From Naegleria gruberi (Eukaryota), in the NCBI GenBank assembly GCA_000004985.1, contig GG738853.1: a DNA stretch of 64,000 nt; one strand, written 5' to 3'. The notes under the pieces are model-generated. The model did not search any database. It was not told the origin of the DNA and was given only the letters and a program-made list of their open reading frames with translations. Below, in pieces: positions 12,050 to 53,052 of this stretch (position 1 is the stretch's first letter; the number at the start of each line of letters is the position of its first letter). The translations under genes and the position numbers were made by a program.

Positions 12050-12688
12050 TTACAATCCTAAGAGTTTCTTCTTTTGTTGTTGAAATTCTTCCTCTGTTAA
12101 AATTCCTCTATCTCTCAATTGACCCAATTTCTCAATTTGTGCATAAACATCATCACCACCAGAGCTACCACCACCACCAAGAATACTTCCTGAACTGGAT
12201 GATGTTGAACTGTTAGAATCACTCAAAGGAGTATTAATAACAGTGGTCGTTCCTGGAGCTTTTGAAACATAACGTTTCTGACCAGTTTTTGGATCGACAA
12301 CGAAACCAGGTTGTTGACGAGGTGAACTTGCACCACTTGTTGTTTTCTGAATTGTTTGAGTGGTTCCAAATTTATCATCCAATTTTCTTTGAACGAGTTG
12401 AAGACCTTTTCCTTCTTCTCTTCTAATGAGAATGAATGGGCCTTCCTTTTCAATATTAAATGATTGTACACTGTCAATATTACGTTTAGCAATCAAAATT
12501 CTGACTTGACATTTGGCAAGTGATGGAATATTTACTTGTTGAGCGACGTGTCTTTCCATTTCTATGGTATCTTCCGTTTTACACACGACAATATGATCAC
12601 CTGTTGTGGTTTCAACAGAGAGTTGGAAAGGAAGAGTTTCAGAAGCTGGAATATTTTCGATACAGAATGTCAAGTTGGTGATTGGCAT
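12050..12688 (-). CDS. protein with a C-terminal SHOCT-like domain
   Basis: 212-aa ORF. C-terminal DDVYAQIEKLGQLRDRGILTEEEFQQQKKKLLGL matches the SHOCT (short C-terminal domain) consensus seen mainly in prokaryotes. A Gly/Ser linker lies upstream of it. The N-terminal ~110 aa form a globular, possibly PH-like domain. Confidence 0.5.
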   Translation of the reverse strand: MPITNLTFCIENIPASETLPFQLSVETTTGDHIVVCKTEDTIEMERHVAQQVNIPSLAKCQVRILIAKRNIDSVQSFNIEKEGPFILIRREEGKGLQLVQRKLDDKFGTTQTIQKTTSGASSPRQQPGFVVDPKTGQKRYVSKAPGTTTVINTPLSDSNSSTSSSSGSILGGGGSSGGDDVYAQIEKLGQLRDRGILTEEEFQQQKKKLLGL

Positions 12689-15464: not shown

Positions 15465-16502
15465 TTAAATGAATAATGATTTCCAACTATCTGGTAATCG
15501 TTTAAAGAAGGGAATATTTTGGAATGTTTTAGGTTGATAGACAATTTCAATGGATGGTTTCGACTCTAAATCAAAGGCAAATGGCACATCACATTCAACA
15601 TCTAAATAATATTCAATCTTTAAAAAGGTTCCATTGGTGGAAGGTAAAGTTTTTCTAGGAATGAAAAAATTTAAAACTCTCTCAGTATGTGTTTTGGCAG
15701 AAACTCCTTCAAATTTCATTCTGTAAACTTCGACTGGACCTTGCTTAATTGTTCTACGACCTTCTTTATCATTGGTTTCTCCATAAGTGGTAAGTTTGAG
15801 AGCTGCTTCATCACAAGAAATTGTTGCAGTTCTAAATAATTTAACTTTCAATGATTGAACATCTTTCCTTGAATCATTTTGAATGCTCAATTTGATTGGA
15901 ATAACTTCACATGGTTGGAAAAAGTTCTTTTCCATTTCTAGTTTCATTTTCAATTTACCAATACCTCCAAAAAGGAATTTCTTCTCTTTGAAATCAGTCA
16001 CTTGTTCTCTGATAATGTTTGGAGTAATAGGAACAAGCATACTACAATATAAATCTCCAAGTCTTGCAGCTACCTTATAAATAACTGCTCCTTTGTAAAC
16101 ATCTTTACAATCTTTCATTGAAATAAAAGTGCTTGGAAGCAATCCATTGGTTGGTAATTGAATTTCGAATGGAAACGAATAATCACCTGCTTCTATTCCA
16201 CTAGGAAAGCTTTTAACAATCGGTCTCAGGTCAACCAATGCCTTTTTACCATTCAACGAATAAGAGCTAGTTCTAGTATCCAACTGTATATCAGTCACAA
16301 CTAAACCTTTAGGAGTTACACCAATCTCATCATCCAATATATGAAGTTTAGTTCTTTCCTTTCCTTTGAATATGACAATTAAATTATTAGCTGGAGAGAA
16401 TGAAGATGGCAAAAGTGGTTCAGTGAGAGAAAGATTAATTATTCCACTCACCACTTCACCAGGATGATAGAAAGGCTTGGAAAGAGTAATGAAGATTGTC
16501 AT
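15465..16502 (-). CDS. arrestin-domain protein (paralog of 4109-5131)
   Basis: 345-aa ORF. MTIFITLSKPFYHPGEV...FKGKERTKL aligns along its length with the ORF at 4109. Confidence 0.65.
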   Translation of the reverse strand: MTIFITLSKPFYHPGEVVSGIINLSLTEPLLPSSFSPANNLIVIFKGKERTKLHILDDEIGVTPKGLVVTDIQLDTRTSSYSLNGKKALVDLRPIVKSFPSGIEAGDYSFPFEIQLPTNGLLPSTFISMKDCKDVYKGAVIYKVAARLGDLYCSMLVPITPNIIREQVTDFKEKKFLFGGIGKLKMKLEMEKNFFQPCEVIPIKLSIQNDSRKDVQSLKVKLFRTATISCDEAALKLTTYGETNDKEGRRTIKQGPVEVYRMKFEGVSAKTHTERVLNFFIPRKTLPSTNGTFLKIEYYLDVECDVPFAFDLESKPSIEIVYQPKTFQNIPFFKRLPDSWKSLFI

Positions 16503-20154: not shown

Positions 20155-21803
20155 ATGCAGCAAGAATCGAACAGCGCACAGTTTCAGAATATATCATCTT
20201 CGGAATTGGAGCAAACGAGCACAACGTATGAGAGAAAAGAAGTGAAAATAATCGAATGGAAAGAATGGAAAATTGTCAAGTTTTTTAGAAGAGACAATAA
20301 AGAGAATGGAAATGGACCAAAACTTTACAAGATGAGGTGGATAATATTGCTGATTTTCGCGTTGGCAATGTTAAGTTCGTTTTTGGCTCAGTTGACTTTC
20401 TCTTCTCTTGGGTGAGTATATCGAATATTTCGAATTAAAGCTCATTTTAAATGAAACCATGAATGAAATTGAATTCTACCATTACAATCAGGGTAATTAT
20501 CATGCAGTATTATAAAATTCCACACCAGAATTGGAAAGTCAACATGATGAGTTTGATATTTCTTATAGTTCATCTTCCCTCTTCATTGATAGTGAGTTTC
20601 GTAATGAAACGTTTTGGATTAAGATGTTGCATGATCATATTCGGTTCACTAACATTTATTGGAATGTGGATTCGTTGTTTTGGCTATAAGAAAGGAGACG
20701 AAACCTATTTATGGATTGCATTTTGTGGCCAAACTTTCATTGCTTTTGCCCAACCATTCCTTACGAGCATTTCGGGTCTTTTGGGAGTAAATTGGTTTGG
20801 AGATAAGGAAAGAACACTGGTCCAAGTTGCAGCTCTACTTACGGCAGCTCTCGGAGGCGGAGTCGCATTTGCTATCGGACCTAGTTTAATTACGATGGGC
20901 AAGAGAGAAATGCATGGATCAGAGATTGGAATGCTAGCTTATTTATCTTCCCAGGCCTTTATTTCAACTGCTTGTTTATTGTTGATTGTTATTTTCTTTA
21001 AGGATCGACCACCAACTCCACCAGTACTAATTAAGGAAATTCAAACAATGGAGAAATTGGACGAAAACGAACAAATGTTAACAGAGGAGAGCAGATTGAC
21101 AATTAATTTGACCACTGATGACATCAATATCGAAAAAGGCTTTGAATCTTTCAATTCGAAAGATATTTATCCAGAACAAACTTTTTGGATAGGTTTTAAA
21201 AAGTTAATGACCTCTCCTCATTTCATAATGTTAACAATTTCATCATCCTGTCTGATTTCTGTCTTTCAAACAATGTCCATTCTCGATCAGATCATTAACC
21301 CAAAAGGTTACACCACCTTTGACACTGCAAATCTTAACATTGTCAATTTGGTATTTGTGGTATTTGGATGTTTTGGATTGAGTATTGTATTTGACAAGAC
21401 TAAACGTTTCAAATTGATTTCTTGCATCAGTAGCTTTATGGCATGTTTAGGATTTGCTTGTTTTGCCATTATCTTGCAATGGAACAAGTCAGATTTCACA
21501 ATAATTTTGGTTTATCTGTCAATGGTCGTTATCGGTTGTTCAGCCATTCCCAGTTTACCTCTAATTTCTCAAATGATAGTCTATTCAACCTATCCAATCC
21601 ATCCAGCAACAAGTCTTGTGATATCAAGTGCCTTCAGTACAATTTGGAATGTAATAATGTGGGTCATTGTAAATGTGCTACTGAGCGAGATGAGTAATTC
21701 ATCCAGTGTCATATTGTGGTTGAGCTTTGCGCTATTGATTGTTTCCTTTATAATGACTGTATTATTTAGAGGTAAATTCGATAATATTCTGGTCAATAAA
21801 TAG
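20155..21803 (+). CDS. MFS (major facilitator superfamily) transporter, FLVCR/MFSD7-like, 2 exons (20155-20411, 20492-21803)
   Basis: GTGAGT...AG intron of 80 nt joins ...LAQLTFSSLG to VIIMQYYK.... About 12 predicted TM helices. MFS loop motif WFGDKERTLVQVAA between TM2 and TM3. The upstream ATG choice (20155) is uncertain. Confidence 0.6.
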
Positions 21804-21888
21804 AAACTGTTCAAAGTTTATTTAGCCAAAGTTATACTTTGTTCATTCAACGTTTTTCGAAAATTGTAAATATGATGAAAATGTGTAA

Positions 21889-21977
21889 GGCGGCTTAGCA
21901 CAGTGGCAGTGCATCAGTCTTGTAGGCAGCAATGCTTAGATAACTGAGGGTCGAGGGTTCAATTCCCTCAGTCGCCT
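21889..21977 (+). tRNA. tRNA-Thr(UGU) with a 17-nt intron (anticodon assignment tentative)
   Basis: Cloverleaf: acceptor GGCGGCT/AGTCGCC; D-arm GCAC-AGTGGCA-GTGC; anticodon stem TCAGT/ACTGA with loop CTTGTA|intron GGCAGCAATGCTTAGAT|A; T-arm GAGGG-TTCAATT-CCCTC. TTTT terminator immediately 3'. Confidence 0.7.
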
Positions 21978-22047
21978 TTTGTATTGGTGATTGCCAAGAA
22001 AAACAAGCCTTAATTGTGAATAAGGGATATTTTCTTTTATCAATGTA

Positions 22048-22120
22048 TCCCCCTTAGCTCAGTCGGTAGAGCGTCAGACTGTTAATCTGCAGGTCGGTGG
22101 TTCGAGCCCACCAGGGGGAG
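22048..22120 (+). tRNA. tRNA-Asn(GUU)
   Basis: Acceptor TCCCCCT/AGGGGGA; D-arm GCTC-AGTCGGTA-GAGC; anticodon loop CTGTTAA; T-arm GGTGG-TTCGAGC-CCACC. T-rich terminator 3'. Confidence 0.8.
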
Positions 22121-22590
22121 TTGTTTTGTTTTTGTTTACTCTAAACTTTGAACTATATTTGATATTACGAATAAGCAGAATATTTCTGAAGGCCAATTGT
22201 TATTTTCAAACGAGATATCCCGTCTAGTTGAGCTGGAAAGCTCAAAAGAAGGGAATGTTAAACTAATAAGGATTGGACGTGATATTCCCGTTCCATGATT
22301 TTTTGCGAGTTAAAACCAGTTCCAAAATCAAGCGGTTGTACAAATCAGACAAGCTAACTGGATTTAAGCATACGAACCAACCTGAAAGAAATGTTTTCTA
22401 ATAGAACCTTCCATTGTAAGCTTTCCAGTATACTGAACATTAAAGATCTCAAAGTCTACTAAGTTGAATTACTATTGCAAATCACCATAATGATTGCTGA
22501 TGACATTGCTGCTACTACCACTCATTAAGTGTGTGATTAATTGTTGTTGATTTGTTGGAGAATCAGATAACACAATCAAAAAAACACAAC

Positions 22591-25500
22591 ATGTCTGGTA
22601 AACCAAGATATTCCACACTTGTGGAAATGCTCGAGCATGCAACACAAGAAAGAACATCCTCTCTCATTTACAGACAATTAGATTACTCCAATGATGTGGT
22701 GGGGGAGGAGAAGAAACTTTTCTCTGACTTATTGAAACCTTCAAGTATCAAGGAGATTAGTTATTGTGATTTCTTAAAGAAAGTGAAATCTCTCTCCACT
22801 CTCATTCAAACTCAAGCCAAAAGTGGTGATAGAGCTTTGCTAATCTTTGAACCAGGTATTAACTTTATTGCTGCTTTCTTTGCTACCTTGTTTGCTGGTG
22901 TTATTGCTGTACCTGTCTATCCTCCAAAGAACAAGGAAGAATTCAACAAGTTGAGTAAGATTCTGGCCGATTCTAAACCAAGTTTATTTCTGTTATCCAA
23001 GCTCATTCATCAAAACTTTGAGCAACATGGCATTAACAAGTTTTTTACCAAGATTAATTCTCAACAACATGTCGAGAATCAGGTAATACAAGATGTACTC
23101 AGTGGTTGTCTGGAAACTTATGAAGGTTTTAGTCTTTTGATTTCAGACGCGGTTGACTACAGTGATAAACAATTGTATACATATTGGAAACACCCAAACA
23201 TCGACACAGATTCGGTTGCTTTCCTCCAATATACCTCTGGATCAACCAGTGATCCAAAAGGTGTCATTCTCACTCATAGAAACCTTCTCAACAATCTTCA
23301 TGTTATGAACTATGCCCTACGATACTCTAATCAGAAACATGTTGTGCTCTGGCTTCCTCCTTACCATGACATGGGTTTAATTGCTGGTTTACTTGAAATT
23401 GTCTATTCGAATTGTAGTGCTACTGTATTATCTCCAATCTCCTTCCTGGAAAATCCATTACGTTGGATGTGGGCAATCAATGAATATAGAGCCACATTGC
23501 TGGGTGCTCCTAATTTTGGTTATGATCTCTGTGTAAAGCACTTTCTAGCTCATGAGAAGGAATACAGAGAAAGTTTTAAATTATTCGATTTTAGCAGTTT
23601 GGAAATTGTGGCATGTGGTGCAGAACCTATCAGAGCAGAAACTATGGAAAGTTTCAGTACACTCTTCTCTGAATTTGGATTGAAAAAACAAGCCATGTAT
23701 CCATGTTATGGATTGGCTGAGAGTACTCTCTATGTCACTGGTGTAAACTATATGAAAGGTTTCGACTTTACCACAATTGACAACAAGAACCAATACATTA
23801 TCAAGAATGGAACAGTCGAACAAACACAAACTCATCAAAAATTCGTTAATTGTGGTGTCAACTATGATGAAAATCAATCCATTAAAATTGTCGATCCAGA
23901 ATCTTCTACAGAAATGGAGAATGGAAAGGTTGGTGAAGTTTGGTTGTCAAGTCCAAGTGTCGCTCAAGGTTATTGGGAGAAACCAGAACTTTCTCAAGAG
24001 GTTTTCCATGCACGAGTGGTTGGAGATGATAGGGAGTATCTCAGAAGTGGAGATTTGGGTTTCATGTTGAATGGAAACTTGTACATTACTGGTCGTCGTA
24101 AGGATGTCATTATTTTGAATGGTGTGAATTATTATCCTCAAGATGTAGAATTGGCATGTTCTAAATGTCATGCACAGATTAGAACTGGGTGTGTGGTGGC
24201 TGTTAATATTGCTGATCGTGATGGACAGGATCGATTGGTGATAATTGCTGAAACTAAAGTTGTTTCGAATAGTGAGACACAAGTATTGGAGAGTATTGTA
24301 CAATCCATACGATCTGCAATTGCCGAATCGATGGGAATTCCAATGTATAATGCCCTATCGACCATCCTTCTCATGACTAAAGGAGGCATTCTCAAGACCA
24401 CAAGTGGTAAACTGAGACGTCAACCAACTAAACAAGCATTTCTCAATAACAAACTTCCTCCAAAACTAATCGTTCACAGATGGGATCAGGAGAAACTCTC
24501 AGATAGCGCTTCTCAACCAAGTACTCCAACAGAGATTGGATTGGCTAAAATTTGGAAAGAATTAACAGGAATTGATCCATCACTTTCGAATAACTTTTTC
24601 CTTTTGGGAGGAAGCTCTATGAGTTTGATTCAGCTAAAATCTAGAATCCAACATGTTTTCAATGTAATTATAAGTTTGACTGATTTGGTAATGTCGCCAA
24701 CATTGCAATTGATGGCTAAATTGGTCGATCAACACAGCAATCAATGTAATACTAGCTCTGTACAAATTTCAAAGAGAGAAAGGACAAGTGACACTTTAGA
24801 ATTATCAAACTCACAAACGAGATTCTGGTTCTTACATCACTTGATCGATAATCCTGCCATTCACAATGTTTTTGCAGGTGTTCGTTTGAAAGGTGACTTG
24901 GATAAACAAGCTTTAGAAAATTCCATTACCAAACTTGTAGAACGTCATGAAAGTTTACGTACAAGCTTTCAAGAAACAGAGATGTCACCAATGCAACACA
25001 TTCATTCTGAAATTTCTCTCAAATTAAATTCAATTAGTTTGAAACATCTCACTAGTGAAGAAGAAAAGAATTTGGAATTGAACAAGTTTCTCTTTGATGA
25101 GGTGAACGCACCATTCAACTTGAATGAAGCTCCTCTTCTCAGAGCTAACTTGATCGAAATGTCAGAGTGTGATCATGTTTTGGCCATGACTTTCCATCAT
25201 ATCATAATCGATGGATGGTCCATGAATTTACTTGTTGAAGAGCTAGTTCAATACTATCTGGCTTTTAAGAATCATCAATCGCCAATTCTTCCACAAGTTC
25301 TTCAATATGGTGATTACACACTGTGGAGCAATCAACAACAATCAATGAATGAAACTCAATTAAAATATTGGGAAGAAAAACTCTCCAATTTACCAGAATC
25401 TATCAAATTGCCAACAGAAGGCGAAAACTTATCCAAATCATTTGATGGATCTCATTTCTGGTTTGCAATCCCAGAAACTCTCGTTAACTCCTTAAGAAAG

Positions 25501-28020
25501 ATCGTTCAATCAAGAGGAGCCACACTCTACATGGGCATGTTAACTCTATTCAATATTTTACTGTACAGATATTCTGAACAGAATGATATTGCAATTGGAA
25601 CACCTGTTGTGAATAGACAGCAACATGTTGAGTTGGAAGCACTGATTGGACTCTTGGTAAATACTCTGGTGATTAGAAATAATGTGAATCCAGAGCATAA
25701 TTTCATTGAAACTTTGATGGAAATCAAGTCAACTGTAATTGAAGCTTTTGAAAATCAAGATGTTCCTTTCCAGAAAGTTGTAGAAAGATTGAAAGATTCA
25801 CGTAATTCAATGGAGAATCCACTTTTTCAAGTCATGATGGCCATGCACAACCCACAACGGAAAATTGTCATGGATAATCTTGAAACTGAGCTAGTTAGAG
25901 TTGACAATGGATCATCCATGTTTAATTTAACACTTGAATTACAAGAAATAGAGGATGGAAGTTTACAATGTTGTTTCGAATATAGAACTGATCTTTTCAA
26001 GAAGGAAACTATTGAAAGAATGGCTGGAAATCTTATTGAACTATTGAAATCAGCCACAACTGAATCGGATAACAAATCAATAAGCAAGTTGTCTTTCCTA
26101 TCGAATTCTGAAGTTGAAACTTTGAATAATTTTGGAAATATCACCAATAATGATCTCAGTTCTTCAGTTTCGAATAGATTATTACACGAACTCATTGAAG
26201 AGCAAGCTATCAAAACACCAGACAATACCGCCGTCTACTTCCAAGGTAAATCCTTCTCCTACCAACTTCTCGATCAAAAATCAGACCAATTAGCAAGGAG
26301 ATTACGAGATATGAATCACTCCAAAAATCCCTTCATTGCCATTAGCATTGACAGAAGCTTTGAATTGATTGTGAGTTTAGTTGCCATTCTCAAAGCTGGA
26401 TTTGCCTATCTCCCTCTCGATCCAAGCTATCCACAAGAACGATTACTCTACGTGCTTGATGATTCACAAGCAGGTCTGTTAATAACTCAATCTAATTATT
26501 CTGAAAAATTCAAAGACTATCAAGGGAAAGTGTTGTCTATTGATAGATTCGTTTGGTCAGCAAGTAGCACTTCCACATCCTCCATTAGTATTGAGAAACC
26601 ATTGACATCACCAAATGATTTGGCCTATCTCATTTACACTTCTGGCAGCACTGGAAATCCAAAAGGTGTCATGCTTTCTCACAGAAATGTAAACAATACT
26701 CTCAATGGTCTAATTAAATTGTACGAAATGAAGCAAGATGACAAGTTTATTCATTACAGCTCCTATAGCTTTGATGTTTCATTGGAAGAGATTTTCCTTC
26801 CACTAATTACAGGTGCTTCGATTATTGTGGCCAATCCAAATATTCAATATCAGTTGGAGGAGCTTGTTGACTTGGTTGAGCAAACGAAGGCAACAATCAT
26901 TGGTGTCACTCCAAGTTTGTGGCATGGTATAAGGTACCATGTTTTGAGGAATCCAAAATCAACTGAATCTTTAAGAATTGTCACTATTGGAAATGAACCT
27001 GTTGATTCGAATGCAGTCAAAGAAATCCAACAAATGTGTCCCAATGCAACAGTATTCAATGTATGTGGAGGAACAGAGACTTGCATTGATTGGTCTCTCT
27101 TCAAGGTTCCAAAAGATTATGCACCTTTACAACAAGTAGTTCCTATTGGAAAACCAATTCCTGGTGTCAAATTGTATGTTTTGGATTCGAATAGAGAGTT
27201 AGTTCCAATTGGAGTACCTGGAGAACTCTACGTTGGAGGAAATGGTGTTGGAAATGGATATTGGAAAAATAGTGAGCTAACCTCCAAGAGCTTTATTGAA
27301 AATCCATTCCAAACTAAAGACGAAAAACAGAACAATGTTAATGGAAAACTATTCAAAACAGGAGATTTGGTTAAATGGTTACCTGATGGAAATATGGTAT
27401 TCATCTCCAGATTGGATCATCAAGTGAAATTAAGAGGATTCAGAGTTGAATTGGGTGAAATTCAAAATGTCATGAGGAAGAGTGGTCTCGTCAGGGAGGC
27501 AATTGTGATTCTCCAAGATGATGAGAATGTCAGTAACAAACAACTTGTTGGATACATTGTGTGTAATGAGGGAGAAACTAGACCGCACTCAATCATCATA
27601 CAGCTAGTCAATTCCTACTTGGAGAAACATCTGCCATACTATATGATTCCATCTCATATCATTTGCATTGAAAAAGTTCCAACAACCAATAATGGAAAAT
27701 TGGATCGTAGAGCTTTACCAAGAGCAGTTGACCACCAGCAAACTAAAAGACTAGAAGAAAATATGGGAGAGGTCGATCCAGCTGATATTCCAGAGAGTCA
27801 TTGCAAGCTAAGACAAATTTGGTCCAAAGTACTCAAGATGAAGGAGGATTGCATTGGGTTGAGTGATAACTTTTTTGCAATTGGTGGAAATTCCATTCTC
27901 ATTGCCCAATTGAGAAGCATGGTTCGTACAGAGTTGGGTATTCAGTTAGAGTTGAAGACTTTCTTTGAAAAATTAACAATCCAATCTATGGCTACCCACA
28001 TTGAAACTGTTAGCCAATAA
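22591..28020 (+). CDS. non-ribosomal peptide synthetase, single module with lipo-initiation: FAAL - ACP - C - A - PCP, no terminal TE/R domain
   Basis: One uninterrupted ORF (the tool ORF begins at a TTG at 22552; the first ATG is 22591). FAAL-type N-terminus (RALLIFEPGINFIAAFFATLFAGVIAVPVYPP, YTSGSTSDPKGVILTHRNL). Carrier domain 1 with FFLLGGSSMSLIQL. Condensation domain with HHIIIDGWS. Adenylation core motifs LIYTSGSTGNPKGVMLSHRN, FDVS, NVCGGTETC, GELYVGGNGVGNGY, YKTGDLVKW, GRLDHQVKLRGFRVELGEIQ, LPYYMIPSHIICIEKVPTTNNGKLDRRAL. Carrier domain 2 with FFAIGGNSILIAQL. Stop follows directly. Confidence 0.9.
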   Translation: MSGKPRYSTLVEMLEHATQERTSSLIYRQLDYSNDVVGEEKKLFSDLLKPSSIKEISYCDFLKKVKSLSTLIQTQAKSGDRALLIFEPGINFIAAFFATLFAGVIAVPVYPPKNKEEFNKLSKILADSKPSLFLLSKLIHQNFEQHGINKFFTKINSQQHVENQVIQDVLSGCLETYEGFSLLISDAVDYSDKQLYTYWKHPNIDTDSVAFLQYTSGSTSDPKGVILTHRNLLNNLHVMNYALRYSNQKHVVLWLPPYHDMGLIAGLLEIVYSNCSATVLSPISFLENPLRWMWAINEYRATLLGAPNFGYDLCVKHFLAHEKEYRESFKLFDFSSLEIVACGAEPIRAETMESFSTLFSEFGLKKQAMYPCYGLAESTLYVTGVNYMKGFDFTTIDNKNQYIIKNGTVEQTQTHQKFVNCGVNYDENQSIKIVDPESSTEMENGKVGEVWLSSPSVAQGYWEKPELSQEVFHARVVGDDREYLRSGDLGFMLNGNLYITGRRKDVIILNGVNYYPQDVELACSKCHAQIRTGCVVAVNIADRDGQDRLVIIAETKVVSNSETQVLESIVQSIRSAIAESMGIPMYNALSTILLMTKGGILKTTSGKLRRQPTKQAFLNNKLPPKLIVHRWDQEKLSDSASQPSTPTEIGLAKIWKELTGIDPSLSNNFFLLGGSSMSLIQLKSRIQHVFNVIISLTDLVMSPTLQLMAKLVDQHSNQCNTSSVQISKRERTSDTLELSNSQTRFWFLHHLIDNPAIHNVFAGVRLKGDLDKQALENSITKLVERHESLRTSFQETEMSPMQHIHSEISLKLNSISLKHLTSEEEKNLELNKFLFDEVNAPFNLNEAPLLRANLIEMSECDHVLAMTFHHIIIDGWSMNLLVEELVQYYLAFKNHQSPILPQVLQYGDYTLWSNQQQSMNETQLKYWEEKLSNLPESIKLPTEGENLSKSFDGSHFWFAIPETLVNSLRKIVQSRGATLYMGMLTLFNILLYRYSEQNDIAIGTPVVNRQQHVELEALIGLLVNTLVIRNNVNPEHNFIETLMEIKSTVIEAFENQDVPFQKVVERLKDSRNSMENPLFQVMMAMHNPQRKIVMDNLETELVRVDNGSSMFNLTLELQEIEDGSLQCCFEYRTDLFKKETIERMAGNLIELLKSATTESDNKSISKLSFLSNSEVETLNNFGNITNNDLSSSVSNRLLHELIEEQAIKTPDNTAVYFQGKSFSYQLLDQKSDQLARRLRDMNHSKNPFIAISIDRSFELIVSLVAILKAGFAYLPLDPSYPQERLLYVLDDSQAGLLITQSNYSEKFKDYQGKVLSIDRFVWSASSTSTSSISIEKPLTSPNDLAYLIYTSGSTGNPKGVMLSHRNVNNTLNGLIKLYEMKQDDKFIHYSSYSFDVSLEEIFLPLITGASIIVANPNIQYQLEELVDLVEQTKATIIGVTPSLWHGIRYHVLRNPKSTESLRIVTIGNEPVDSNAVKEIQQMCPNATVFNVCGGTETCIDWSLFKVPKDYAPLQQVVPIGKPIPGVKLYVLDSNRELVPIGVPGELYVGGNGVGNGYWKNSELTSKSFIENPFQTKDEKQNNVNGKLFKTGDLVKWLPDGNMVFISRLDHQVKLRGFRVELGEIQNVMRKSGLVREAIVILQDDENVSNKQLVGYIVCNEGETRPHSIIIQLVNSYLEKHLPYYMIPSHIICIEKVPTTNNGKLDRRALPRAVDHQQTKRLEENMGEVDPADIPESHCKLRQIWSKVLKMKEDCIGLSDNFFAIGGNSILIAQLRSMVRTELGIQLELKTFFEKLTIQSMATHIETVSQ

Positions 28021-28145
28021 ATCCTAAAAATGTAAAATATAAGTTGTAATATCTTAAAATATTTATTATAACGTCTCGTGTATCGTAAAGGTAATGTAAA
28101 ATAGATATTTCATATTGGCCGTGAAAAGTTTAAAAAGGAAAACAA

Positions 28146-28218
28146 CTCCCCCTGGTGGGCTCGAACCACCGACCTGCAGATTAACAGTCTGACGCTCTAC
28201 CGACTGAGCTAAGGGGGA
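28146..28218 (-). tRNA. tRNA-Asn(GUU), inverted duplicate
   Basis: Exact reverse complement of the tRNA at 22048-22120. Confidence 0.8.
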
Positions 28219-28299
28219 TACATTAATAAAAGAAAATATTCCTTATTCACAATTAAGGCTTGTTTTTCTTGTTAAGATTTTGGCAATCACCAGTACAAA

Positions 28300-28388
28300 A
28301 GGCGACTGAGGGAATTGAACCCTCGACCCTCAGTTATCTCAGCATTTCTGCCTACAAGACTGATGCACTGCCACTGTGCTAAGCCGCC
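28300..28388 (-). tRNA. tRNA-Thr(UGU) with 17-nt intron, inverted duplicate
   Basis: Exons identical to 21889-21977. Intron GGCAGAAATGCTGAGAT versus GGCAGCAATGCTTAGAT in the left copy. Confidence 0.7.
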
Positions 28389-28460
28389 TTACACTTTATC
28401 ATCAAATTTAAAATTTTCGAAAAACATGTGCAAGGACAAAGAATAATTCATTTGCAGAGT

Positions 28461-33711: not shown

Positions 33712-34520
33712 ATGAAAAATTTAAAATTACAATTAAAAAAAATGTCTCAACAAGAAACAAGTTCACCATCAGCGGAATCAACTGAAAAACAAGTTGTTTT
33801 GATGAAGGAAAGTAGGAATTATATGGGTCACAAACCAACAAATAAAAAGAGGATGGTTGAGGTGAAGAGGCCAGTTTATGATTTTCCTCTTGATGATTTT
33901 TCGATTTTTGGAAAGGTTTCGGATGAGGATTTGAAGCTCAATTCGACCTATGCTTTGCATACAGCTTTGTGTTACATTCCACCAGAGTCTATATGGGATC
34001 CTGTTCAAGATATAAGACAGGAAATTGATAAGGTATGTTTGAATACTGCTATTTGGTTTCGAACAAATAATAGGGAATGGAAAGATGGCCTCCTCATGTG
34101 AACTTGTTATTTCCTTTTATTCCAGAAACATGTTTTGATTCGGCTTTGAAATTATTGACTCAAGAATTGCAAGATTTCAAACCTTTCGAATGCTCATTCG
34201 ATTCAATTTCATATTTTGAAAAAGGATCTTCTGTCTTGTGGGTCAACCAAAACGAAACTGCAAGAAATAACTTTATAGAATTACAAAAACGAGTTGCTTC
34301 CCTCTTTCCTTATTGTGCTAAGAAGAAAAACGAAACTGGAGAATTCATTCCACACATGACTGTTGGTTATGCACCAAAAACAATTGTGGAAAAAGTTCAC
34401 AAACAATTGAGTGAGGATTGGAAAACTCAAACTGTAACAGTTGGAGAAATTTGCATGATTTACAGACCTGATGTGGATACTTGTTTCAAAATTATTCACA
34501 AAGTACCACTTGGAAAGTAA
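33712..34520 (+). CDS. 2H-phosphoesterase-like (LigT/CPDase superfamily) protein; putative 2 exons (33712-34033, 34074-34520)
   Basis: The second part contains PHVNLLFPF and PHMTVGY (H-x-T/S-x type motifs) about 90 aa apart. A putative 40-nt GTATGT...AG intron joins ...QEIDK to GMERWPPHVNL in frame. The exon-1 assignment is uncertain. Confidence 0.35.
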
Positions 34521-39530: not shown

Positions 39531-39603
39531 GCGGCAGTAGATCAGTGGTTAGATCGTCCGCCTCACACGCGGAAGGTCGCGGGTTCGAACCCCGTTTGCC
39601 GTA
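39531..39603 (+). tRNA. tRNA-Val(CAC)
   Basis: Acceptor GCGGCAG/TTGCCGT; D-arm GATC-AGTGGTTA-GATC; anticodon loop CTCACAC; T-arm GCGGG-TTCGAAC-CCCGT. T-run downstream. Confidence 0.8.
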
Positions 39604-39992: not shown

Positions 39993-40065
39993 TACGCAAG
40001 GCGGGGTTTGAACCCGCGACCTTCCGCGTGTGAGGCGGACGATCTAACCACTGATCTACTTGCGC
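39993..40065 (-). tRNA. tRNA-Val(CAC), convergent copy
   Basis: Same body as 39531-39603. The acceptor stem is changed to GCGCAAG/CTTGCGT with compensatory changes. T-stem 3' CCCGC and T-loop TTCAAAC. TTTT follows. Confidence 0.8.
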
Positions 40066-41921: not shown

Positions 41922-43679
41922 TTAATAATGTAATTGTTCAATTGCCTCAACCCATGAATCTCTCTCCTCTGCACTGTCTACACAACAGTTCAAATTTCTC
42001 GCTCCCGATATTACCACAAATGTGAAACCCTTCTTTGATTCATCTTCCACATTTCTGGCTCTTGTCTTTGGATCAATTACTACAATGCCCTTTGGTTTTT
42101 CGTTTGGTGCATCCTTGGAGAAATAAAAGAGGAATTCCTTAAATAACAAACAGTACCTCTTCTTCCATGATTTAAAGTTTGAGCCTTGCTTCTCCATATA
42201 GCCTGCCTTGACAGGTCTCATGTGTTTCAGTGTTTGTACAGTTGGGTTAGAACCAAATCGCATCTCTGCTAATGCAGCTCCAGCATTTTCACCACTATTC
42301 TTGAGCAATGTTTGGACATCATTCTTTGATTTTTCATGTTGTTCTTTCAGTGTCAGTAAGGCAGAGGCAAGTTGAAGATTCTCCTTTCTAGATTCATCCA
42401 ATTTTTCTTCCACTTCTTGTTTATCCTTTGTGTATTGCTCCGCCAAAGTTTGTCTTTCCTGTGCAAGTTTTTCTTCCATTTCTTGTCTTTCCTTTTCCAA
42501 AGTTTCAGCCATTTCTTGCTTTTCTTTTATCATGTTTTCTTCCATCTCTTTCTTTTCCTTCTCAAGCTTTTCTTTTTCCAAATTTAGAGATTTTCCCTCG
42601 GTAAATTGTTTCACCCTCTCAATTTCAATCGCCAATCGTTGTTTGAGGTCTTGAACCTGACTCTTGTAGGTATCCAACTCGGAGAGTGTACTATCGAGTT
42701 GAGATTTAGTTTCTTGTAATTGAGTTGTGGCTAAAATTTGAGATTGTTCCAAGTGGGAAACTCTTTCTTGAAGAGTGATGATCTTGGTTTGTTGATTTTC
42801 ATTCTCTCGCTGCAACTTATCATTTGTAGTCAATAGTGAAGTGTTATCGCTTTCTAGTTTTTCAATTTGTTTCCTCATGTGAATTTCTAATTTTTTGTAC
42901 ATGTCAGTTGTTTCAAAGTTGGAAACATTCTTTATGAGCGCCAAGAATGCTTTCATTTCAGGTCTTGTATTTACATCAGGTATTTCCTTTCCTAGAATAG
43001 CAATAGAATTTTCAAATATTTCATTCTTGAGAGTGTCGAGTGTCTCTTCTGACTGTTCCAAAACCAAATCGGAATGGTCACAACTATAAAAAATGGATGA
43101 AATCAGAGACATTATCAAGTGCTTCTCACCATAGAGAATATCTTCAGGCTCCAGCATGATACTCTTCTTGTTCAAATCCAATCTGTCTATTACTTCCAAA
43201 AGGGCTTGGATTTTATCACTATCTGTTGGAGCCTCAGAGATCATTGCCTCATCTTCATCTGTAAAACCCTTAGAGACTGTCTTTACAAGTTGGTGGAAGA
43301 GATAACCGTTTCTCCATTCCTCTCCAAGATTTGTTACCTTAATGTTTTTAGATTCCAACCTATTATTGACCCATCTGAGCAAGAGCGAGAGAGGTTGTTG
43401 ATTCATAAATTCCACAACTGTTTCATCTGCCCTCTTCAATGCAATTGCATCAAAGAAGTGAACAATATTCAGTGATTTAGTCAAATCCTCTCTAATCAAT
43501 TGCCACAAGATGGAATTTAATGCTGTTGGTCTCCCCTCGGCACAATCCTCTGGAGAAATGTTGACTACTACAATACCAAGACCCTTGGCATATCCTAGAA
43601 CCATTGTATGATTCAAAACTCGTTTAATCTTGTTCAATTCTTGTTCCTTCTTTGGTTTACATATTTTACTCCATTCCAC
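41922..43679 (-). CDS. coiled-coil protein with C-terminal PH domain
   Basis: 585-aa ORF. Long heptad-rich E/K/Q central region. C-terminal PH-like segment VKAGYMEKQGSNFKSWKKRYCLLFKEFLFYFS...SWVEAIEQ. Confidence 0.55.
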   Translation of the reverse strand: MEWSKICKPKKEQELNKIKRVLNHTMVLGYAKGLGIVVVNISPEDCAEGRPTALNSILWQLIREDLTKSLNIVHFFDAIALKRADETVVEFMNQQPLSLLLRWVNNRLESKNIKVTNLGEEWRNGYLFHQLVKTVSKGFTDEDEAMISEAPTDSDKIQALLEVIDRLDLNKKSIMLEPEDILYGEKHLIMSLISSIFYSCDHSDLVLEQSEETLDTLKNEIFENSIAILGKEIPDVNTRPEMKAFLALIKNVSNFETTDMYKKLEIHMRKQIEKLESDNTSLLTTNDKLQRENENQQTKIITLQERVSHLEQSQILATTQLQETKSQLDSTLSELDTYKSQVQDLKQRLAIEIERVKQFTEGKSLNLEKEKLEKEKKEMEENMIKEKQEMAETLEKERQEMEEKLAQERQTLAEQYTKDKQEVEEKLDESRKENLQLASALLTLKEQHEKSKNDVQTLLKNSGENAGAALAEMRFGSNPTVQTLKHMRPVKAGYMEKQGSNFKSWKKRYCLLFKEFLFYFSKDAPNEKPKGIVVIDPKTRARNVEDESKKGFTFVVISGARNLNCCVDSAEERDSWVEAIEQLHY

Positions 43680-44428
43680 AACTCCTTCTATTAAATTATC
43701 GATGAGATGACTATTTTACATTCCATTCATTCGTTGTTATTGTTGTTTATCAAATTTCAGAAGAATGATTAGTGAAAACCTACATGAATATTAAACCATC
43801 ACTTAATCGACCATATAACTCATTTGAAGTTTCCAAATTATCAACACTAATTGGTTGCCACTCACCAATCGTTTCCTCCACTCGTTGTGGCATCTCTCTC
43901 AATCTCTTACTCATAACGGAATTAATAAACATGATAAAACACCTCTTCTCTCTCTTTGAAATCGTCGAGACCGAACCTGTTGCACTCACCGATTTAATTA
44001 GTGGCTCGACACTCCTGAGTGAGGCTCCTCTTAACTTGATAGCCTCTTCACCTTCGAGCGTTGTTGTTTGTTGCTGCGAATTGTCGTTATTAAGGTTGCG
44101 AGATGACAACATTTTTTCTACAAGTAATAATTTTTTTAAAAATTCCTTAAATCCTTAACGTCTCCCTTCAACAGCCCAAAGATTTGGCGGGAGAAATCTT
44201 GCTCAATAATGCACTGTAAAATAATGATCCCCTTAATGGTTCTATTCGAAAGGAAAATTAGTTTATTTAAGTATTTAAAAGTTTTCAAGTTTTTTATAAA
44301 ATGTTAAATTTTTGTATCTTTTAAAAAGAATTCATACTTTCAGTTTCAAAATACGAAATGAAGATAAACTTACTTAAAGAACATCAAGAAATTACAATTT
44401 ATTTAATGAAAAATCAAAATGTAAAAAA

Positions 44429-45658
44429 ATGCAAAGACAACAACAGAGAGCATCCTCATCACAAAATGTTTCTCAACATCAGCAATCTCTTGAACAACAA
44501 CAAAATTCTCAAGAAGAGGATGATTTAGAATCGGTCAGATTATCACAAGCTGACGAATTATCGCCACCATCATCACCCGAACCTGAAACTCCTTTTCAAA
44601 ATCGAAGAAGGAGAGAACGAGAACGTTCTTTATCATCTAATGATGAAGAAGAACAATCAGTAGTAGATGAACAAGACAATACTTCAGTAACTCCCAACAT
44701 AAATGCTCATCAAAGTCCCTATGTAACATCAAATGCTCGGAGGAGAGATTTAATGTACTCTAATCGATACTCTCCACAAACACCAGGACAAAAGAAGAAG
44801 GCTTTGGAAAATAAATTGAAAAGGGATTTTCCAGAAGACTTTAGAGAAATGAATAGAAGAGAGGAGGAACGAAAAAAGAAACGAGAATTTTGTCCAGATA
44901 GCTGTGGCTCGATTGCTGGATTTCAATTTACAAATCCTGGTTTACTCATGTTGGGACAGTCAGCACTACATAGATCGGGAGCAATCAGTTCATTGAGTAC
45001 GATTGATCCTGCCTTCCTGGCACTGCATAGTCCCGAGAAGAGAATTGAAATTTTGAATAGTGTGGTTGCAAAACCTCCTCCACTTCCTCCAAAGGAACCA
45101 AAAACAGAGGCCGATATACTGAGGGAGTTTCTTAAAAAGAAGAGAACTGAATTGGCAAAACAGGACAAGGTTCAACCTAGATTGATCATGGCAGATGATA
45201 CTATCGATCTGATTGTCATGTGTAGAGAATCAATGTGTATGGGACATGAACTAGTTGAGAAAATTAAGGAAAAACATCAACAGACGATTGTTAATTATGT
45301 ACGAGCATTTGTGAAAAAGAAACATCAACAGCATGAAACTGCAGATGATAATGTAAATAGCAACCATTTAGATTTGAATGTCAATTCCTCTCACTTGAAT
45401 GAAACGAGTCAATCAGCATGTTTGGAAAATAGTAACAACAATAACACATTGAATGAGATTTCCCAACTGAATCATTCTATTGCATCTTCAACATCTTCTC
45501 AAACTGTTGTTACAGAGCCAGTTACTCCTGCCAAACAAAGTGTTTCCTTAAAAACTCCAACAGCAAGTAATTCAAAGAAAACACCAGTTCAAAAAGAGGT
45601 TATCGAACTTGATTCTAGTGATTCTGATGATGATGATGGAATTATCCAAATTGATTAA
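44429..45658 (+). CDS. low-complexity Ser/Arg/Glu-rich, nuclear-type protein
   Basis: 409-aa ORF with Q-rich N-terminus, RRRERERS, SPxSP motifs and an acidic C-terminal SSDSDDDD tail. Confidence 0.45.
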   Translation: MQRQQQRASSSQNVSQHQQSLEQQQNSQEEDDLESVRLSQADELSPPSSPEPETPFQNRRRRERERSLSSNDEEEQSVVDEQDNTSVTPNINAHQSPYVTSNARRRDLMYSNRYSPQTPGQKKKALENKLKRDFPEDFREMNRREEERKKKREFCPDSCGSIAGFQFTNPGLLMLGQSALHRSGAISSLSTIDPAFLALHSPEKRIEILNSVVAKPPPLPPKEPKTEADILREFLKKKRTELAKQDKVQPRLIMADDTIDLIVMCRESMCMGHELVEKIKEKHQQTIVNYVRAFVKKKHQQHETADDNVNSNHLDLNVNSSHLNETSQSACLENSNNNNTLNEISQLNHSIASSTSSQTVVTEPVTPAKQSVSLKTPTASNSKKTPVQKEVIELDSSDSDDDDGIIQID

Positions 45659-45765
45659 CAGAATCAATATTTTATTAAATAATAACAATCTGATATCTTC
45701 TTAATAAGAACACCTCAATCATCAAATATTACTGATAACACCCTTCACATGTCAGCCATCACCTG

Positions 45766-52321: not shown

Positions 52322-53052
52322 CTGTAAAGCGAACTTCAAATAAAGCAATTTGTGTACCACATCCGAACTTTGTAAAATCCATTCCAAATACGGTCAAGAG
52401 ATAGGACACAATAAGCGAATATCCCAAGTATTTCTTCTTGTGGATGTTTCCAACAACAGATCTTGGTTCTAATCTGTTCTTTCATGTATTATCTATAAAA
52501 TTAAAACAATGTTAATTAAATTAATTGCCAATAACTATTGAGTGATTCGGAAAGTAAAAATTCGGAATAAAGCAACGACCATCTATTGTAATTTTCCCAT
52601 CATCCTGATGATGATGATTACTAACTGAATAGATGAAAAAAGTCTCATAGGCATTAAAGGTTAAAAGCAAATTAATGGTGAGGATGAAGGGCAAACAATT
52701 TAATATTTTAAAATTCAAAAAAAAAAAAGTTTTTTCCAATTTCAAAAAAAAATATCAAACTCTGCTCGCTTGCGATTGCTATTAAAATAATCGTAACGGT
52801 TTTATATATTGTTGTTAGTGTTTTTATTATAATCATCACCATCATCACTGCTACTCTGTAGAAAGGAAGAAAAGCAACACCCTATTATACGCTCAGTAGT
52901 GTATTATCATCATCATTGTACAATTTTTCTTCTTGCGATTTTAACCTCCTTTTTATTTGCACTAAATCAGATTTTCATACTAGACACAATACGTATTGGA
53001 AATCTACACTATCTTCATCATCTAAACAACAATCAAACAAAATATATAGAAA

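What the first reader, a model, noticed from the sequence alone, without database searches (positions are those of the whole stretch)
22591..28020. Lipo-initiation NRPS architecture (FAAL-ACP-C-A-PCP) with no release domain
The N-terminal ~600 aa are a fatty-acyl-AMP ligase type adenylation domain of the kind that starts bacterial lipopeptide and mycobacterial lipid pathways. It is followed by a carrier domain (GGSSMS), a condensation domain (HHIIIDGWS) and a full adenylation domain (A3-A10 motifs visible, FDVS at A4). The ORF ends right after a second carrier domain (GGNSI). There is no thioesterase, reductase or terminal C domain. Product release must occur in trans, or the product stays carrier-bound for a downstream partner. 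The predicted product is an N-acyl amino acid or short lipopeptide.
Basis: partly seen in the sequence, partly recalled or inferred. Interest (0 to 1): 0.7.

Follow-up and report, generated by a model that had tools for sequence, protein, structure and literature searches.

The report
Bacterial-type lipopeptide synthetase in Naegleria
The region is an intact, single-exon gene of the free-living amoeba Naegleria gruberi for a bacterial-style one-module enzyme that should join a fatty acid to one amino acid; the design is common in bacteria, but here it stands alone in a eukaryote with no release domain, no docking tail and no partner gene nearby.

Summary
ORF 22591-28020 (+) encodes 1809 aa with the order FAAL-ACP-C-A-PCP, every catalytic motif is intact, and no TE, R or terminal C domain follows.

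The window is Naegleria gruberi nuclear DNA, and the protein is the already annotated XP_002680530.1 / D2V677. N. lovaniensis has an orthologue (54% identity) with the same architecture and the same end point. That orthologue sits in an unrelated gene neighbourhood. Between the two species dN is 0.37 while dS is saturated.

All other relatives are bacterial, at 27-38% identity, and no close donor was found. Ending in a carrier domain is ordinary in bacteria. There, such proteins carry a 62-94-aa docking tail and are followed directly by a PKS or a C-A-T-TE gene. The Naegleria proteins have a bare PCP (41 and 44 aa after the phosphopantetheine Ser) and no NRPS, PKS or TE neighbour.

The specificity code (DVEGTGVIDK) and the A5 motif (NVCGGTE) are unique among 231 homologues.

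Best reading: an anciently acquired, stand-alone N-acyl amino acid synthetase whose product is released in trans or by self-cyclisation. This is a new member of a known kind and of moderate interest.

The parts
22591..28020 (+). Single-exon gene for an 1809-aa NRPS, including the TAA stop (N. gruberi XP_002680530.1 / EFC47786.1 / UniProt D2V677)
   Evidence: The TTG at 22552 is an artefact of bacterial-code ORF calling. The ATG at 22591 matches the deposited model and the N-termini of the homologues.
22612..24459 (+). FAAL domain (aa 8-623). Motifs: YTSGSTSDPKG at 23230-23262, YGLAEST at 23707-23727, TSGKLRR at 24400-24420.
   Evidence: NCBIfam FAAL models cover aa 8-622. Best PDB hits are 7R7E at 408 bits and 3KXW at 354 bits. 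Pfam PF00501 and PF23024.
23728..23883 (+). Region holding the FAAL-specific insertion, between motif A5 and the KIVDPES strand
   Evidence: This spacing is 59 aa here and 36 aa at the equivalent place in the same protein's A domain, so 23 aa are extra. The region aligns through the matching stretch of the solved FAAL 7R7E. The insertion is the feature that defines FAALs (PMC11837247).
24541..24756 (+). ACP (aa ~651-722). The phosphopantetheine Ser676 lies in LGGSSMS, at 24616-24618.
   Evidence: Pfam PP-binding. G673 and S676 are invariant in alignment A2.
24790..26124 (+). Condensation domain (aa 734-1178) with HHIIIDGWS at 25195-25221. It resembles LCL elongation-type C domains.
   Evidence: Pfam E=3.9e-99. 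Best PDB hits are Txo1/Txo2 at 246 and 244 bits, TycC6 at 211 and LgrA at 162. The dedicated starter C domain RzmA (7C1H) scores only 50 bits.
26197..27699 (+). Adenylation domain (aa 1203-1703) with motifs A2-A10 present. The specificity code is DVEGTGVIDK. The A5 motif is the atypical NVCGGTE, at 27058-27078.
27805..28002 (+). PCP (aa 1739-1804). Ser1768 lies in IGGNSI, at 27892-27894. Only 41 aa follow it, so there is no docking tail.
21852..22133 (+). Left arm of the inverted repeat: tRNA-Thr(UGU, intron-containing; 21888-21978) and tRNA-Asn(GUU; 22048-22120)
28133..28425 (-). Right arm of the inverted repeat: tRNA-Asn(GUU; 28146-28218) and tRNA-Thr(UGU; 28299-28389)
   Evidence: The arms are 95-97% complementary to each other.

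Best explanation
This is a nuclear, intron-less gene of the amoeboflagellate Naegleria gruberi. It encodes a complete one-module lipo-initiation NRPS of bacterial ancestry.

Proposed mechanism:
1. The FAAL domain adenylates a free fatty acid and loads it on Ser676 of the ACP.
2. The A domain adenylates one amino acid and loads it on Ser1768 of the PCP. Its code, DVEGTGVIDK, matched none of the homologues or the few reference signatures compared here. Acidic residues at positions 239 and 331 hint at a polar or basic substrate of the Orn/Arg/Lys class.
3. The LCL-type C domain forms the amide bond and leaves N-acyl-aminoacyl-S-PCP.

These steps are inferred from intact domains and motifs. They have not been shown biochemically.

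Origin: the gene was most likely acquired from a bacterium before N. gruberi and N. lovaniensis diverged, and it has been kept under purifying selection since.

Release: the bacterial T-ending relatives hand their intermediate to the next subunit. The Naegleria enzyme has no C-terminal docking tail and no NRPS, PKS or TE neighbour in either species. I therefore judge that it works as a stand-alone N-acyl amino acid synthetase. Its product would be released either by a hydrolase or acyltransferase encoded elsewhere in the genome or by intramolecular attack of the amino acid side chain (lactam or lactone formation).

Approximate probabilities:
- Domain identities and the PCP-bound N-acyl-aminoacyl intermediate: 0.9.
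- Genuine eukaryotic gene of bacterial origin: 0.9.
- Stand-alone operation rather than hand-off: 0.55.
For: Architecture and motifs.

Eukaryotic host:
- 100% match to the N. gruberi protein on a 695-kb scaffold.
- Neighbouring ORFs carry BTB, PARP, arrestin, C2, PH, CH, FHA, forkhead and ATG5 domains.
- Intron-containing tRNAs flank the gene.
- GC is 37% and GC3 is 32%, like the neighbouring genes.

Conservation:
- The N. lovaniensis orthologue has the same domain order and the same end point.
- Identity is 49-66% per domain, and all core motifs are identical.
- dN=0.37 against saturated dS.

Bacterial ancestry:
- Every other hit among 5.8 billion proteins, and the 80 loci kept from the scan of 185,579 species genomes, are bacterial at 27-38% identity.
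- The hits span Cyanobacteria, Acidobacteriota, Myxococcota, Nitrospirota, Planctomycetota and Pseudomonadota.

Stand-alone reading:
- Most of the 74 bacterial homologues of single-module length have 62-94 aa (mode 83) after the last phosphopantetheine Ser. The exceptions are three 15-38-aa ends that look truncated, P0135 at 44 aa, and one protein that continues into a second C domain. The tails shown carry recognisable docking sequences. Naegleria has 41 and 44 aa.
- Bacterial T-ending homologues are followed within 0-220 bp by a PKS (L002), by a C-A-T-TE gene (L003), or by a 1557-aa gene with no Pfam hit on record (L004).
- The Naegleria genes have no NRPS, PKS or TE within the 64-kb window or within 10 kb on either side in N. 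lovaniensis. The two loci share no other gene.
- Solitary bacterial single-module versions exist, with a TE (P0142, L005) and without one (P0135, L006). They fall next to Naegleria in a neighbour-joining tree.
Against: - No release activity has been identified, and the rest of the Naegleria genome could not be searched. Naegleria genomes encode PKSs, 16 in the pangenome (PMC9928731), and one of these could be an acceptor.
- Eukaryotic pathway genes need not be linked, so the absence of a neighbour is weak evidence.
- The neighbour-joining placement has no bootstrap support, and distances to all bacterial groups are nearly flat (1.23-1.29).
- The A5 motif lacks the near-universal Tyr and Pro: 226 of 231 homologues have Tyr and 209 of 231 have Pro. 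The A domain may therefore be catalytically atypical.
- There is no expression or metabolite evidence.
- The substrate guess rests on two residues. I recalled the Arg and Lys signatures from memory. Only the Orn signature DVGEIGSIDK was checked in a paper.
Confidence: 0.55

Rival explanations
1. It is the initiation subunit of a split assembly line. The N-acyl-aminoacyl-S-PCP intermediate is passed in trans to a Naegleria PKS or NRPS encoded elsewhere, and that partner elongates and releases a larger lipopeptide or lipopeptide-polyketide.
For: This is how the bacterial ~1790-aa relatives appear to be organised. L002 is followed by a PKS module, L003 by a C-A-T-TE gene, and L004 by a 1557-aa gene with no Pfam hit on record. 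Naegleria genomes contain PKS genes (PMC9928731; PMC7285305). Eukaryotic genes need not be clustered.
Against: Both Naegleria proteins end 41 and 44 aa after the PCP Ser. They lack the ~35-40 extra residues of docking sequence that most of the bacterial T-ending relatives carry. No NRPS or PKS lies near either orthologue, and the two loci share no other gene. No second Naegleria NRPS appeared among the listed hits, though a lower-scoring one would not have been listed.
Confidence: 0.27
2. It is a functionless or decaying remnant: a truncated first piece of a transferred bacterial gene cluster that makes no released product.
For: There is no release domain, no partner nearby, and an A5 motif that departs from the consensus at two near-invariant positions. 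No orthologue from N. fowleri appeared among the hits, which is compatible with the gene being dispensable.
Against: - A 5.4-kb ORF is intact in two species that have diverged to saturated dS. dN is 0.37, and the A core is the best-conserved part at 65.6% identity.
- The phosphopantetheine serines, HHxxxDG, the adenylation motifs checked and the A10 lysine are all conserved.
- The unusual A5 motif and the specificity positions are identical in both species.
- Neutral decay would have broken the frame long ago.
Confidence: 0.07
3. It is bacterial contamination or a mis-assembly in the amoeba genome.
For: All non-Naegleria homologues are bacterial, and the gene has no introns.
Against: - The gene is embedded between eukaryotic genes and intron-containing tRNA genes on a 695-kb scaffold.
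- Its GC and GC3 match the host.
- An orthologue lies on a 656-kb contig of an independently sequenced species, between eukaryotic genes (DnaJ/ZUO1, protein kinase, kelch).
- No bacterial sequence is closer than 38% identity.
Confidence: 0.01

Closest known systems
Bacterial FAAL-ACP-C-A-T lipo-initiation subunits (uncharacterised ~1780-1800-aa proteins of Nitrospira, Sorangium, Archangium, Nostoc and Tumebacillus). FAAL domains fused to NRPSs are described for vioprolides in PMC11837247.
   Same: Identical domain order and length, the same core motifs, and 33-36% identity over the full length. They too end in a carrier domain with no TE.
   Different: The bacterial proteins carry a 62-94-aa post-Ser docking tail, and a downstream PKS or NRPS-TE gene in the same operon follows directly. 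The Naegleria protein has a bare PCP, no partner nearby and a eukaryotic host. Its specificity code and A5 motif are unique.
Solitary bacterial single-module enzymes: FAAL-ACP-C-A-T-TE (P0142, locus L005; also P0128 and P0129) and the TE-less, tail-less P0135 (Gammaproteobacteria MAG, locus L006)
   Same: One module, with no other NRPS or PKS within 10 kb. P0135 also ends 44 aa after the PCP Ser. These are the nearest neighbours of Naegleria in the neighbour-joining tree and by distance.
   Different: Identity is only 33-36%. Most members keep a TE. None has been characterised, so the comparison gives an architecture but no known product.
PvdL, the pyoverdine initiation NRPS (solved structures 9LCO, 9LCP, 9LCQ, 9UP2)
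   Same: It starts with an acyl-activating domain and a carrier domain, followed by C-A-T, and it N-acylates the first amino acid (own knowledge). Its C domain matches the Naegleria C domain at 121 bits and its A domain at 227 bits.
   Different: PvdL continues with further modules. Its N-terminal ligase domain did not match the Naegleria FAAL at E<=1e-20. In that pathway the acyl group is later removed (own knowledge).
Solved stand-alone FAALs (7R7E, Legionella 3KXW, mycobacterial FadD32/FadD28/FadD23, E. coli 3PBK)
   Same: These are the best structural relatives of aa 1-640, at 170-408 bits. The FAAL-specific insertion region is present.
   Different: Most of them are separate proteins or loading domains of PKS and lipid pathways. 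They are not fused to a full NRPS module.
Horizontally acquired NRPS genes in other eukaryotes: bdelloid rotifers (PMC11258130), the animal survey (PMC10531068), and FAAL-NRPS fusions noted in Oomycota, Chytridiomycota and Chlorophyta (PMC12820801)
   Same: These are bacterial-type NRPS genes resident in eukaryotic nuclear genomes with a patchy distribution. The FAAL survey lists FAALs in 'two Naegleria species'.
   Different: None of those eukaryotic proteins appeared among the 120 best hits to the FAAL-ACP-C region, so this looks like an independent acquisition. The Naegleria enzyme has not been described beyond that one sentence.

Membership tests
Modular non-ribosomal peptide synthetase (type I NRPS) | An adenylation domain of the ANL superfamily carrying the NRPS core motifs A1-A10, including the A10 lysine | tested here: met
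   TIGR01733 amino-acid adenylation domain scores 524 bits against a cut-off of 317. Pfam PF00501 and PF13193. Motifs A2, A3, A4 and A6-A10 were located. A5 is present but atypical, NVCGGTE.
Modular non-ribosomal peptide synthetase (type I NRPS) | Carrier domains with a conserved Ser for phosphopantetheinylation | tested here: met
   Two PP-binding hits. S676 and S1768 are invariant across 9 aligned homologues. Actual modification cannot be tested here.
Modular non-ribosomal peptide synthetase (type I NRPS) | A condensation domain with the catalytic HHxxxDG motif | tested here: met
   PF00668, E=3.9e-99. HHIIIDGWS at aa 869-877, identical in N. lovaniensis.
Modular non-ribosomal peptide synthetase (type I NRPS) | A cis-acting chain-release domain (TE, R or terminal C). 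This is typical of terminal modules but does not define the family. | tested here: not met
   No PF00975, reductase or second C domain. There are stops in all frames downstream. The N. lovaniensis orthologue shows the same.
Fatty acyl-AMP ligase (FAAL) | Closer to FAALs than to fatty acyl-CoA ligases over the whole domain | tested here: met
   The 16 best PDB matches are FAALs, and no FACL reached E<=1e-20. NCBIfam FAAL models cover aa 8-622 at 343-429 bits, although these scores are below the cut-offs of those subfamily-specific models.
Fatty acyl-AMP ligase (FAAL) | The FAAL-specific insertion in the N-terminal domain (PMC11837247) | tested here: met
   The spacing between A5 and the following strand is 59 aa, against 36 aa in the A domain of the same protein. 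The region aligns through the corresponding segment of FAAL 7R7E.
Fatty acyl-AMP ligase (FAAL) | Transfers acyl-AMP to a holo-ACP rather than to CoA | not testable with these tools
   An ACP is fused directly downstream, which fits this behaviour. It needs a biochemical assay.
Starter (Cs) condensation domain of lipopeptide synthetases | Sequence affinity to dedicated starter C domains | tested here: not met
   The starter C domain RzmA (7C1H) scores 50 bits. LCL elongation C domains score 160-246 bits. No NaPDoS-type classification was available.
Initiation subunit of a multi-protein NRPS/PKS line | A C-terminal docking (communication) tail after the last carrier domain | tested here: not met
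   The tail is 41 and 44 aa in Naegleria, against 62-94 aa (mode 83) in most bacterial homologues of the same length.
Initiation subunit of a multi-protein NRPS/PKS line | An acceptor synthetase encoded in the same genome | not testable with these tools
   None lies within the 64-kb window or within 10 kb on either side in N. lovaniensis. The rest of the genomes could not be searched.

The most novel reading that the evidence does not exclude
A bacterivorous amoeba has domesticated a bacterial lipo-initiation module into a self-sufficient enzyme that lacks a thioesterase. The N-acyl-aminoacyl thioester would release itself by side-chain cyclisation. The product would be an N-acyl lactam or lactone, a structural mimic of bacterial acyl-homoserine-lactone-type signals or of ornithine/lysine lipids. 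The amoeba could use such a molecule to manipulate or kill prey bacteria, or as its own developmental signal. The unique specificity code and the unique A5 motif would then reflect a non-proteinogenic substrate.
Probability: 0.1. Interest if true: 0.75.

Novelty: new member of a known kind. Interest (0 to 1): 0.4.

Why it matters
NRPSs are rare outside bacteria and fungi. I found no description of this enzyme's chemistry in the papers I could search. A stably retained, stand-alone lipo-amino-acid synthetase in Naegleria would give protists an unexplored route to N-acyl amino acid lipids, which could act as signals, surfactants or antimicrobials in predator-prey interactions.

It would also be a compact, 1809-aa natural test case for how an NRPS turns over without a release domain or a docking partner. 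The gene appears to be missing from the hits for the pathogen N. fowleri. If that absence is confirmed, it would be a simple metabolic difference between harmless and pathogenic Naegleria.

The architecture itself is textbook and the gene is already annotated, so the value lies in its context rather than in a new mechanism.

Tried and rejected
1. A hidden continuation into a TE or R domain is rejected. All frames downstream contain stops, a tRNA and a minus-strand GTPase gene follow, and the orthologue ends at the same point.
2. A gene cluster around the NRPS is rejected. Pfam scans of about 40 window ORFs found only eukaryotic signalling and housekeeping domains, with no TE, PPTase, NRPS or PKS.
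3. The upstream MFS transporter (20463-21803) as a co-transferred exporter is rejected. Its relatives are three N. gruberi paralogues and distant eukaryotic FLVCR/SLC49-like proteins. No MFS gene is near the N. lovaniensis orthologue.
4. Synteny between the two Naegleria loci was not found. The NRPS gene is the only shared ORF.
5. The tRNA inverted repeat as the scar of the original transfer is rejected. The arms are 95-97% identical, including the intron and spacer, so they are young or homogenised. The NRPS predates the species split, and N. lovaniensis has no flanking tRNAs.
6. Substrate assignment from the specificity code failed. The code matches none of the other 229 homologous first-module codes in full; the nearest is DVWDTGCIDK at 7 of 10 positions. 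A literature search for the code returned nothing.
7. The search for a close bacterial donor failed. Nothing exceeds 38% identity in the protein database or in 185,579 species genomes. The neighbour-joining tree gave a placement without support values.
8. Four literature searches found no description of the Naegleria NRPS beyond one sentence on FAALs in two Naegleria species.
9. dN/dS is only semi-quantitative. YN00 failed and NG86 gave dS=5.9, which is saturated.
Full report
**Observation.** The window contains one long ORF at 22552-28020 (+). Its first ATG is at 22591 and gives 1809 aa. Pfam finds two AMP-binding regions (E=1.7e-139), a condensation domain at aa 734-1178 (E=3.9e-99), two PP-binding domains (E=2e-27), AMP-binding_C at aa 1623-1703 and the FAAL/DIP2-type C-subdomain at aa 505-623. 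It finds nothing else. NCBIfam FAAL models (PRK05850, PRK12476, FadD32) cover aa 8-622, and TIGR01733 (amino-acid adenylation) passes its cut-off at 524 bits against 317. The best solved-structure relatives of aa 1-640 are all FAALs: 7R7E, Legionella 3KXW, FadD32/23/28 and E. coli 3PBK.

The spacing between motif A5 and the next strand is 59 aa in the N-terminal domain. It is 36 aa at the equivalent place in the A domain of the same protein. This is the position of the FAAL-specific insertion that defines the family (PMC11837247). The stop is TAA. The 112 nt that follow contain stops in all frames and run into a tRNA gene on the other strand, and a 787-aa minus-strand GTPase ORF lies beyond that.

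**Source of the sequence.** The protein is 100% identical over its full length to 'non-ribosomal peptide synthetase [Naegleria gruberi]' (XP_002680530.1 / EFC47786.1 / UniProt D2V677) on a 695-kb scaffold. The other ORFs of the window carry BTB, PARP, arrestin, C2, PH, CH, FHA, forkhead and ATG5 domains. The flanking tRNA-Thr genes are 91 nt long and have an intron after position 37. The gene's GC (37%) and GC3 (32%) match those of its neighbours. This is a resident eukaryotic nuclear gene and not contamination. It has no intron.

**Conservation and origin.** The only other eukaryotic hit is N. lovaniensis XP_044549142.1 (1837 aa, 54% identity). It has the same five domains and ends at the same place, 44 aa after the PCP serine against 41 in N. 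gruberi. Identity per domain is 49-66% and is highest in the A core. Linkers are much less conserved, at 27-37%. The phosphopantetheine serines, HHxxxDG, the adenylation motifs checked and the A10 lysine are all conserved. NG86 gives dN=0.37 with saturated dS of 5.9, so the gene has been under purifying selection since the two species split.

Everything else that matches is bacterial at 27-38% identity. The hits spread over Cyanobacteria, Acidobacteriota, Myxococcota, Nitrospirota, Planctomycetota, Chloroflexota, Bacillota and Pseudomonadota. No donor can be named. The patchy distribution and the flat similarity to many phyla fit an old bacterium-to-Naegleria transfer, and composition has since fully adjusted to the host. 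No N. fowleri protein appeared among the hits. N. lovaniensis is the sister of N. fowleri (own knowledge), so this suggests loss in the pathogen. I could not check it at the DNA level.

**How unusual the architecture is.** It is not unusual in bacteria. A search with the FAAL-ACP-C part alone returned many bacterial proteins of 1760-1830 aa with exactly FAAL-ACP-C-A-T and no TE. It also returned a 1970-2050-aa class that adds a TE. Three T-ending examples were inspected. One is followed within a few bases by a PKS module (L002, Nitrospira). One is followed by a C-A-T-TE gene plus a PPTase (L003). One is followed by a 1557-aa gene with no Pfam hit on record, in a siderophore-like cluster that also holds a TonB receptor, an ABC exporter, a penicillin amidase, MbtH and TauD (L004, Sorangium). 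'No release domain' simply marks a first subunit there.

**What differs in Naegleria.**
- Most of the 74 bacterial homologues of single-module length have 62-94 residues (mode 83) after the last phosphopantetheine serine. The exceptions are three short, apparently truncated ends, P0135 at 44 aa, and one protein that runs on into a second C domain. The extra ~40 residues in the tails shown look like docking sequences. The two Naegleria proteins stop at 41 and 44 residues, which is a bare PCP.
- Neither Naegleria locus has an NRPS, PKS, TE or PPTase nearby. The two loci share no gene other than the NRPS.
- The adjacent MFS transporter belongs to a Naegleria-specific family and was not co-transferred.
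- Two bacterial precedents for solitary single-module enzymes were found. P0142 (FAAL-ACP-C-A-T-TE, L005) sits among exporters and lipid-metabolism genes. P0135 (a Gammaproteobacteria MAG, L006) lacks a TE, lacks a tail (44 aa) and has no synthetase within 10 kb. A neighbour-joining tree of the FAAL-ACP-C region puts P0135 and three TE-containing single-module proteins as sister to the Naegleria pair. That tree has no bootstrap values, and distances to all groups are nearly equal. I treat it as a hint only.

**Catalytic details.**
- The C domain resembles ordinary LCL elongation domains: Txo1/Txo2 at 246 and 244 bits, TycC6 at 211 and LgrA at 162. It does not resemble the dedicated starter C of RzmA, which scores 50 bits. 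That fits a donor delivered by an in-cis ACP.
- I extracted the ten specificity-conferring positions of the A domain from a MAFFT alignment of 231 homologous first-module A domains with the GrsA-PheA segment.
- Both Naegleria proteins read DVEGTGVIDK, and no other homologue does. The nearest is DVWDTGCIDK at 7 of 10 positions.
- A literature search for the code found nothing. The Orn signature DVGEIGSIDK was confirmed in PMC3992020 and shares 6 of 10 positions.
- Glu239 and Asp331 suggest a polar or cationic side chain. This is inference at low confidence.
- Unexplained: the A5 motif is NVCGGTE. Of 231 homologues, 226 have Tyr and 209 have Pro at the positions that are Cys and Gly only in the two Naegleria proteins.

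**Mechanism.**
- Inferred from intact domains: the FAAL adenylates a fatty acid and loads ACP-Ser676. The A domain loads an amino acid on PCP-Ser1768. The C domain forms N-acyl-aminoacyl-S-PCP.
- Inferred from context: the enzyme works alone, and its product leaves by a trans-acting hydrolase or acyltransferase or by side-chain cyclisation.
- The main rival is hand-off to a Naegleria PKS or NRPS elsewhere in the genome. Naegleria does encode PKSs (PMC9928731), and I could not search the rest of the genome.
- A decaying remnant is unlikely, given selection across two species.
- Contamination is excluded.

**Literature and novelty.** The gene has been annotated as an NRPS in GenBank since the genome release. 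A 2026 survey of FAALs mentions, in one sentence, FAALs in 'two Naegleria species' (PMC12820801). The Naegleria pangenome paper discusses PKSs but not this gene. I found nothing on its architecture, its missing docking tail, its specificity or its product. Horizontally acquired NRPSs are known in other eukaryotes, for example bdelloid rotifers (PMC11258130) and other animals (PMC10531068). I therefore rate this as a new member of a known kind and of moderate interest. The architecture is textbook. The eukaryotic, stand-alone, tail-less context and the unique A-domain features are what deserve follow-up.

**Side observation.** The NRPS gene lies between the arms of a ~285-nt inverted repeat. 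Each arm is a tRNA-Thr(UGU)-tRNA-Asn(GUU) pair, at 21852-22133 and 28133-28425, and the arms are 95-97% identical. The only differences inside tRNA-Thr fall in its intron, and homology ends about 12 nt past tRNA-Asn. N. lovaniensis has no tRNAs at its locus. The repeat is therefore younger than the gene and is not the scar of the transfer. It could allow the 6-kb segment to invert. A second convergent tRNA pair, tRNA-Val(CAC), lies at 39.5-40.1 kb, so inverted tRNA pairs may be a general feature of this genome.

Noticed in passing
window 21852-22133 (+) and 28133-28425 (-): A ~285-nt inverted repeat brackets the NRPS gene. Each arm is tRNA-Thr(UGU, 91 nt with an intron) plus tRNA-Asn(GUU), and the arms are 95-97% identical. 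The only differences inside tRNA-Thr fall in the intron. The repeat is absent from the N. lovaniensis locus, so it is younger than the gene. It could mediate inversion of the 6-kb segment.
   Followed up: partly
window 39531-39603 (+) and 39993-40065 (-): A second convergent inverted pair of identical-anticodon tRNA genes, tRNA-Val(CAC). The arms are 84% complementary over 96 nt and 385 nt apart. Inverted tRNA pairs may be a general feature of this genome.
   Followed up: partly
window 27058-27078 (aa 1490-1496): The A-domain motif A5 reads NVCGGTE instead of NxYGPTE. The Cys and the second Gly occur only in the two Naegleria proteins among 231 homologues. The functional consequence is unknown.
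   Followed up: partly
window 20463-21803 (+): The MFS transporter directly upstream of the NRPS belongs to a small Naegleria-specific family with three N. gruberi paralogues. Its distant relatives are FLVCR/SLC49-like proteins. It is not of bacterial origin and is not linked to the NRPS in N. lovaniensis.
   Followed up: yes
window 4109-5131 (+) and 15465-16502 (-): Two ORFs with both arrestin N and arrestin C domains.
   Followed up: no
window 12050-12688 (-): A 212-aa ORF that ends in a SHOCT domain (E=1e-10). As far as I recall this domain is mostly bacterial, so the ORF may be another acquired gene.
   Followed up: no
window 33712-34520 (+): A 2'-5' RNA ligase (LigT-like) ORF at 34077-34520 is preceded by an overlapping 129-aa ORF in another frame. 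This suggests an intron or a frameshift in a single gene.
   Followed up: no
window 45766-48681 (+): A 971-aa ORF that combines three PH domains with a right-handed beta-helix (NosD-like) region.
   Followed up: no
window 42001-46000 and 52001-56000: Strong local AT-skew and GC-skew excursions (AT skew -0.19, +0.17 and +0.23) over coding regions. Low-complexity coding repeats are a likely cause.
   Followed up: no
L006 10001-15172 (Gammaproteobacteria MAG, GCA_035546635.1) and L005 10001-16162: Bacterial solitary single-module relatives on low-GC contigs (41% and 37%). P0135 lacks both a TE and a docking tail and has no synthetase within 10 kb, which is the same puzzle as in Naegleria. An 835-aa protein with no Pfam hit lies convergently just downstream of it.
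   Followed up: partly
L004 (Sorangium sp. So ce406) and L002 (Nitrospira): In these bacteria the FAAL-ACP-C-A-T gene sits in siderophore-like clusters with a TonB-dependent receptor, PepSY_TM, an ABC exporter and a penicillin amidase. The amidase suggests that the acyl chain is removed after export, as in pyoverdine maturation (own knowledge).
   Followed up: no
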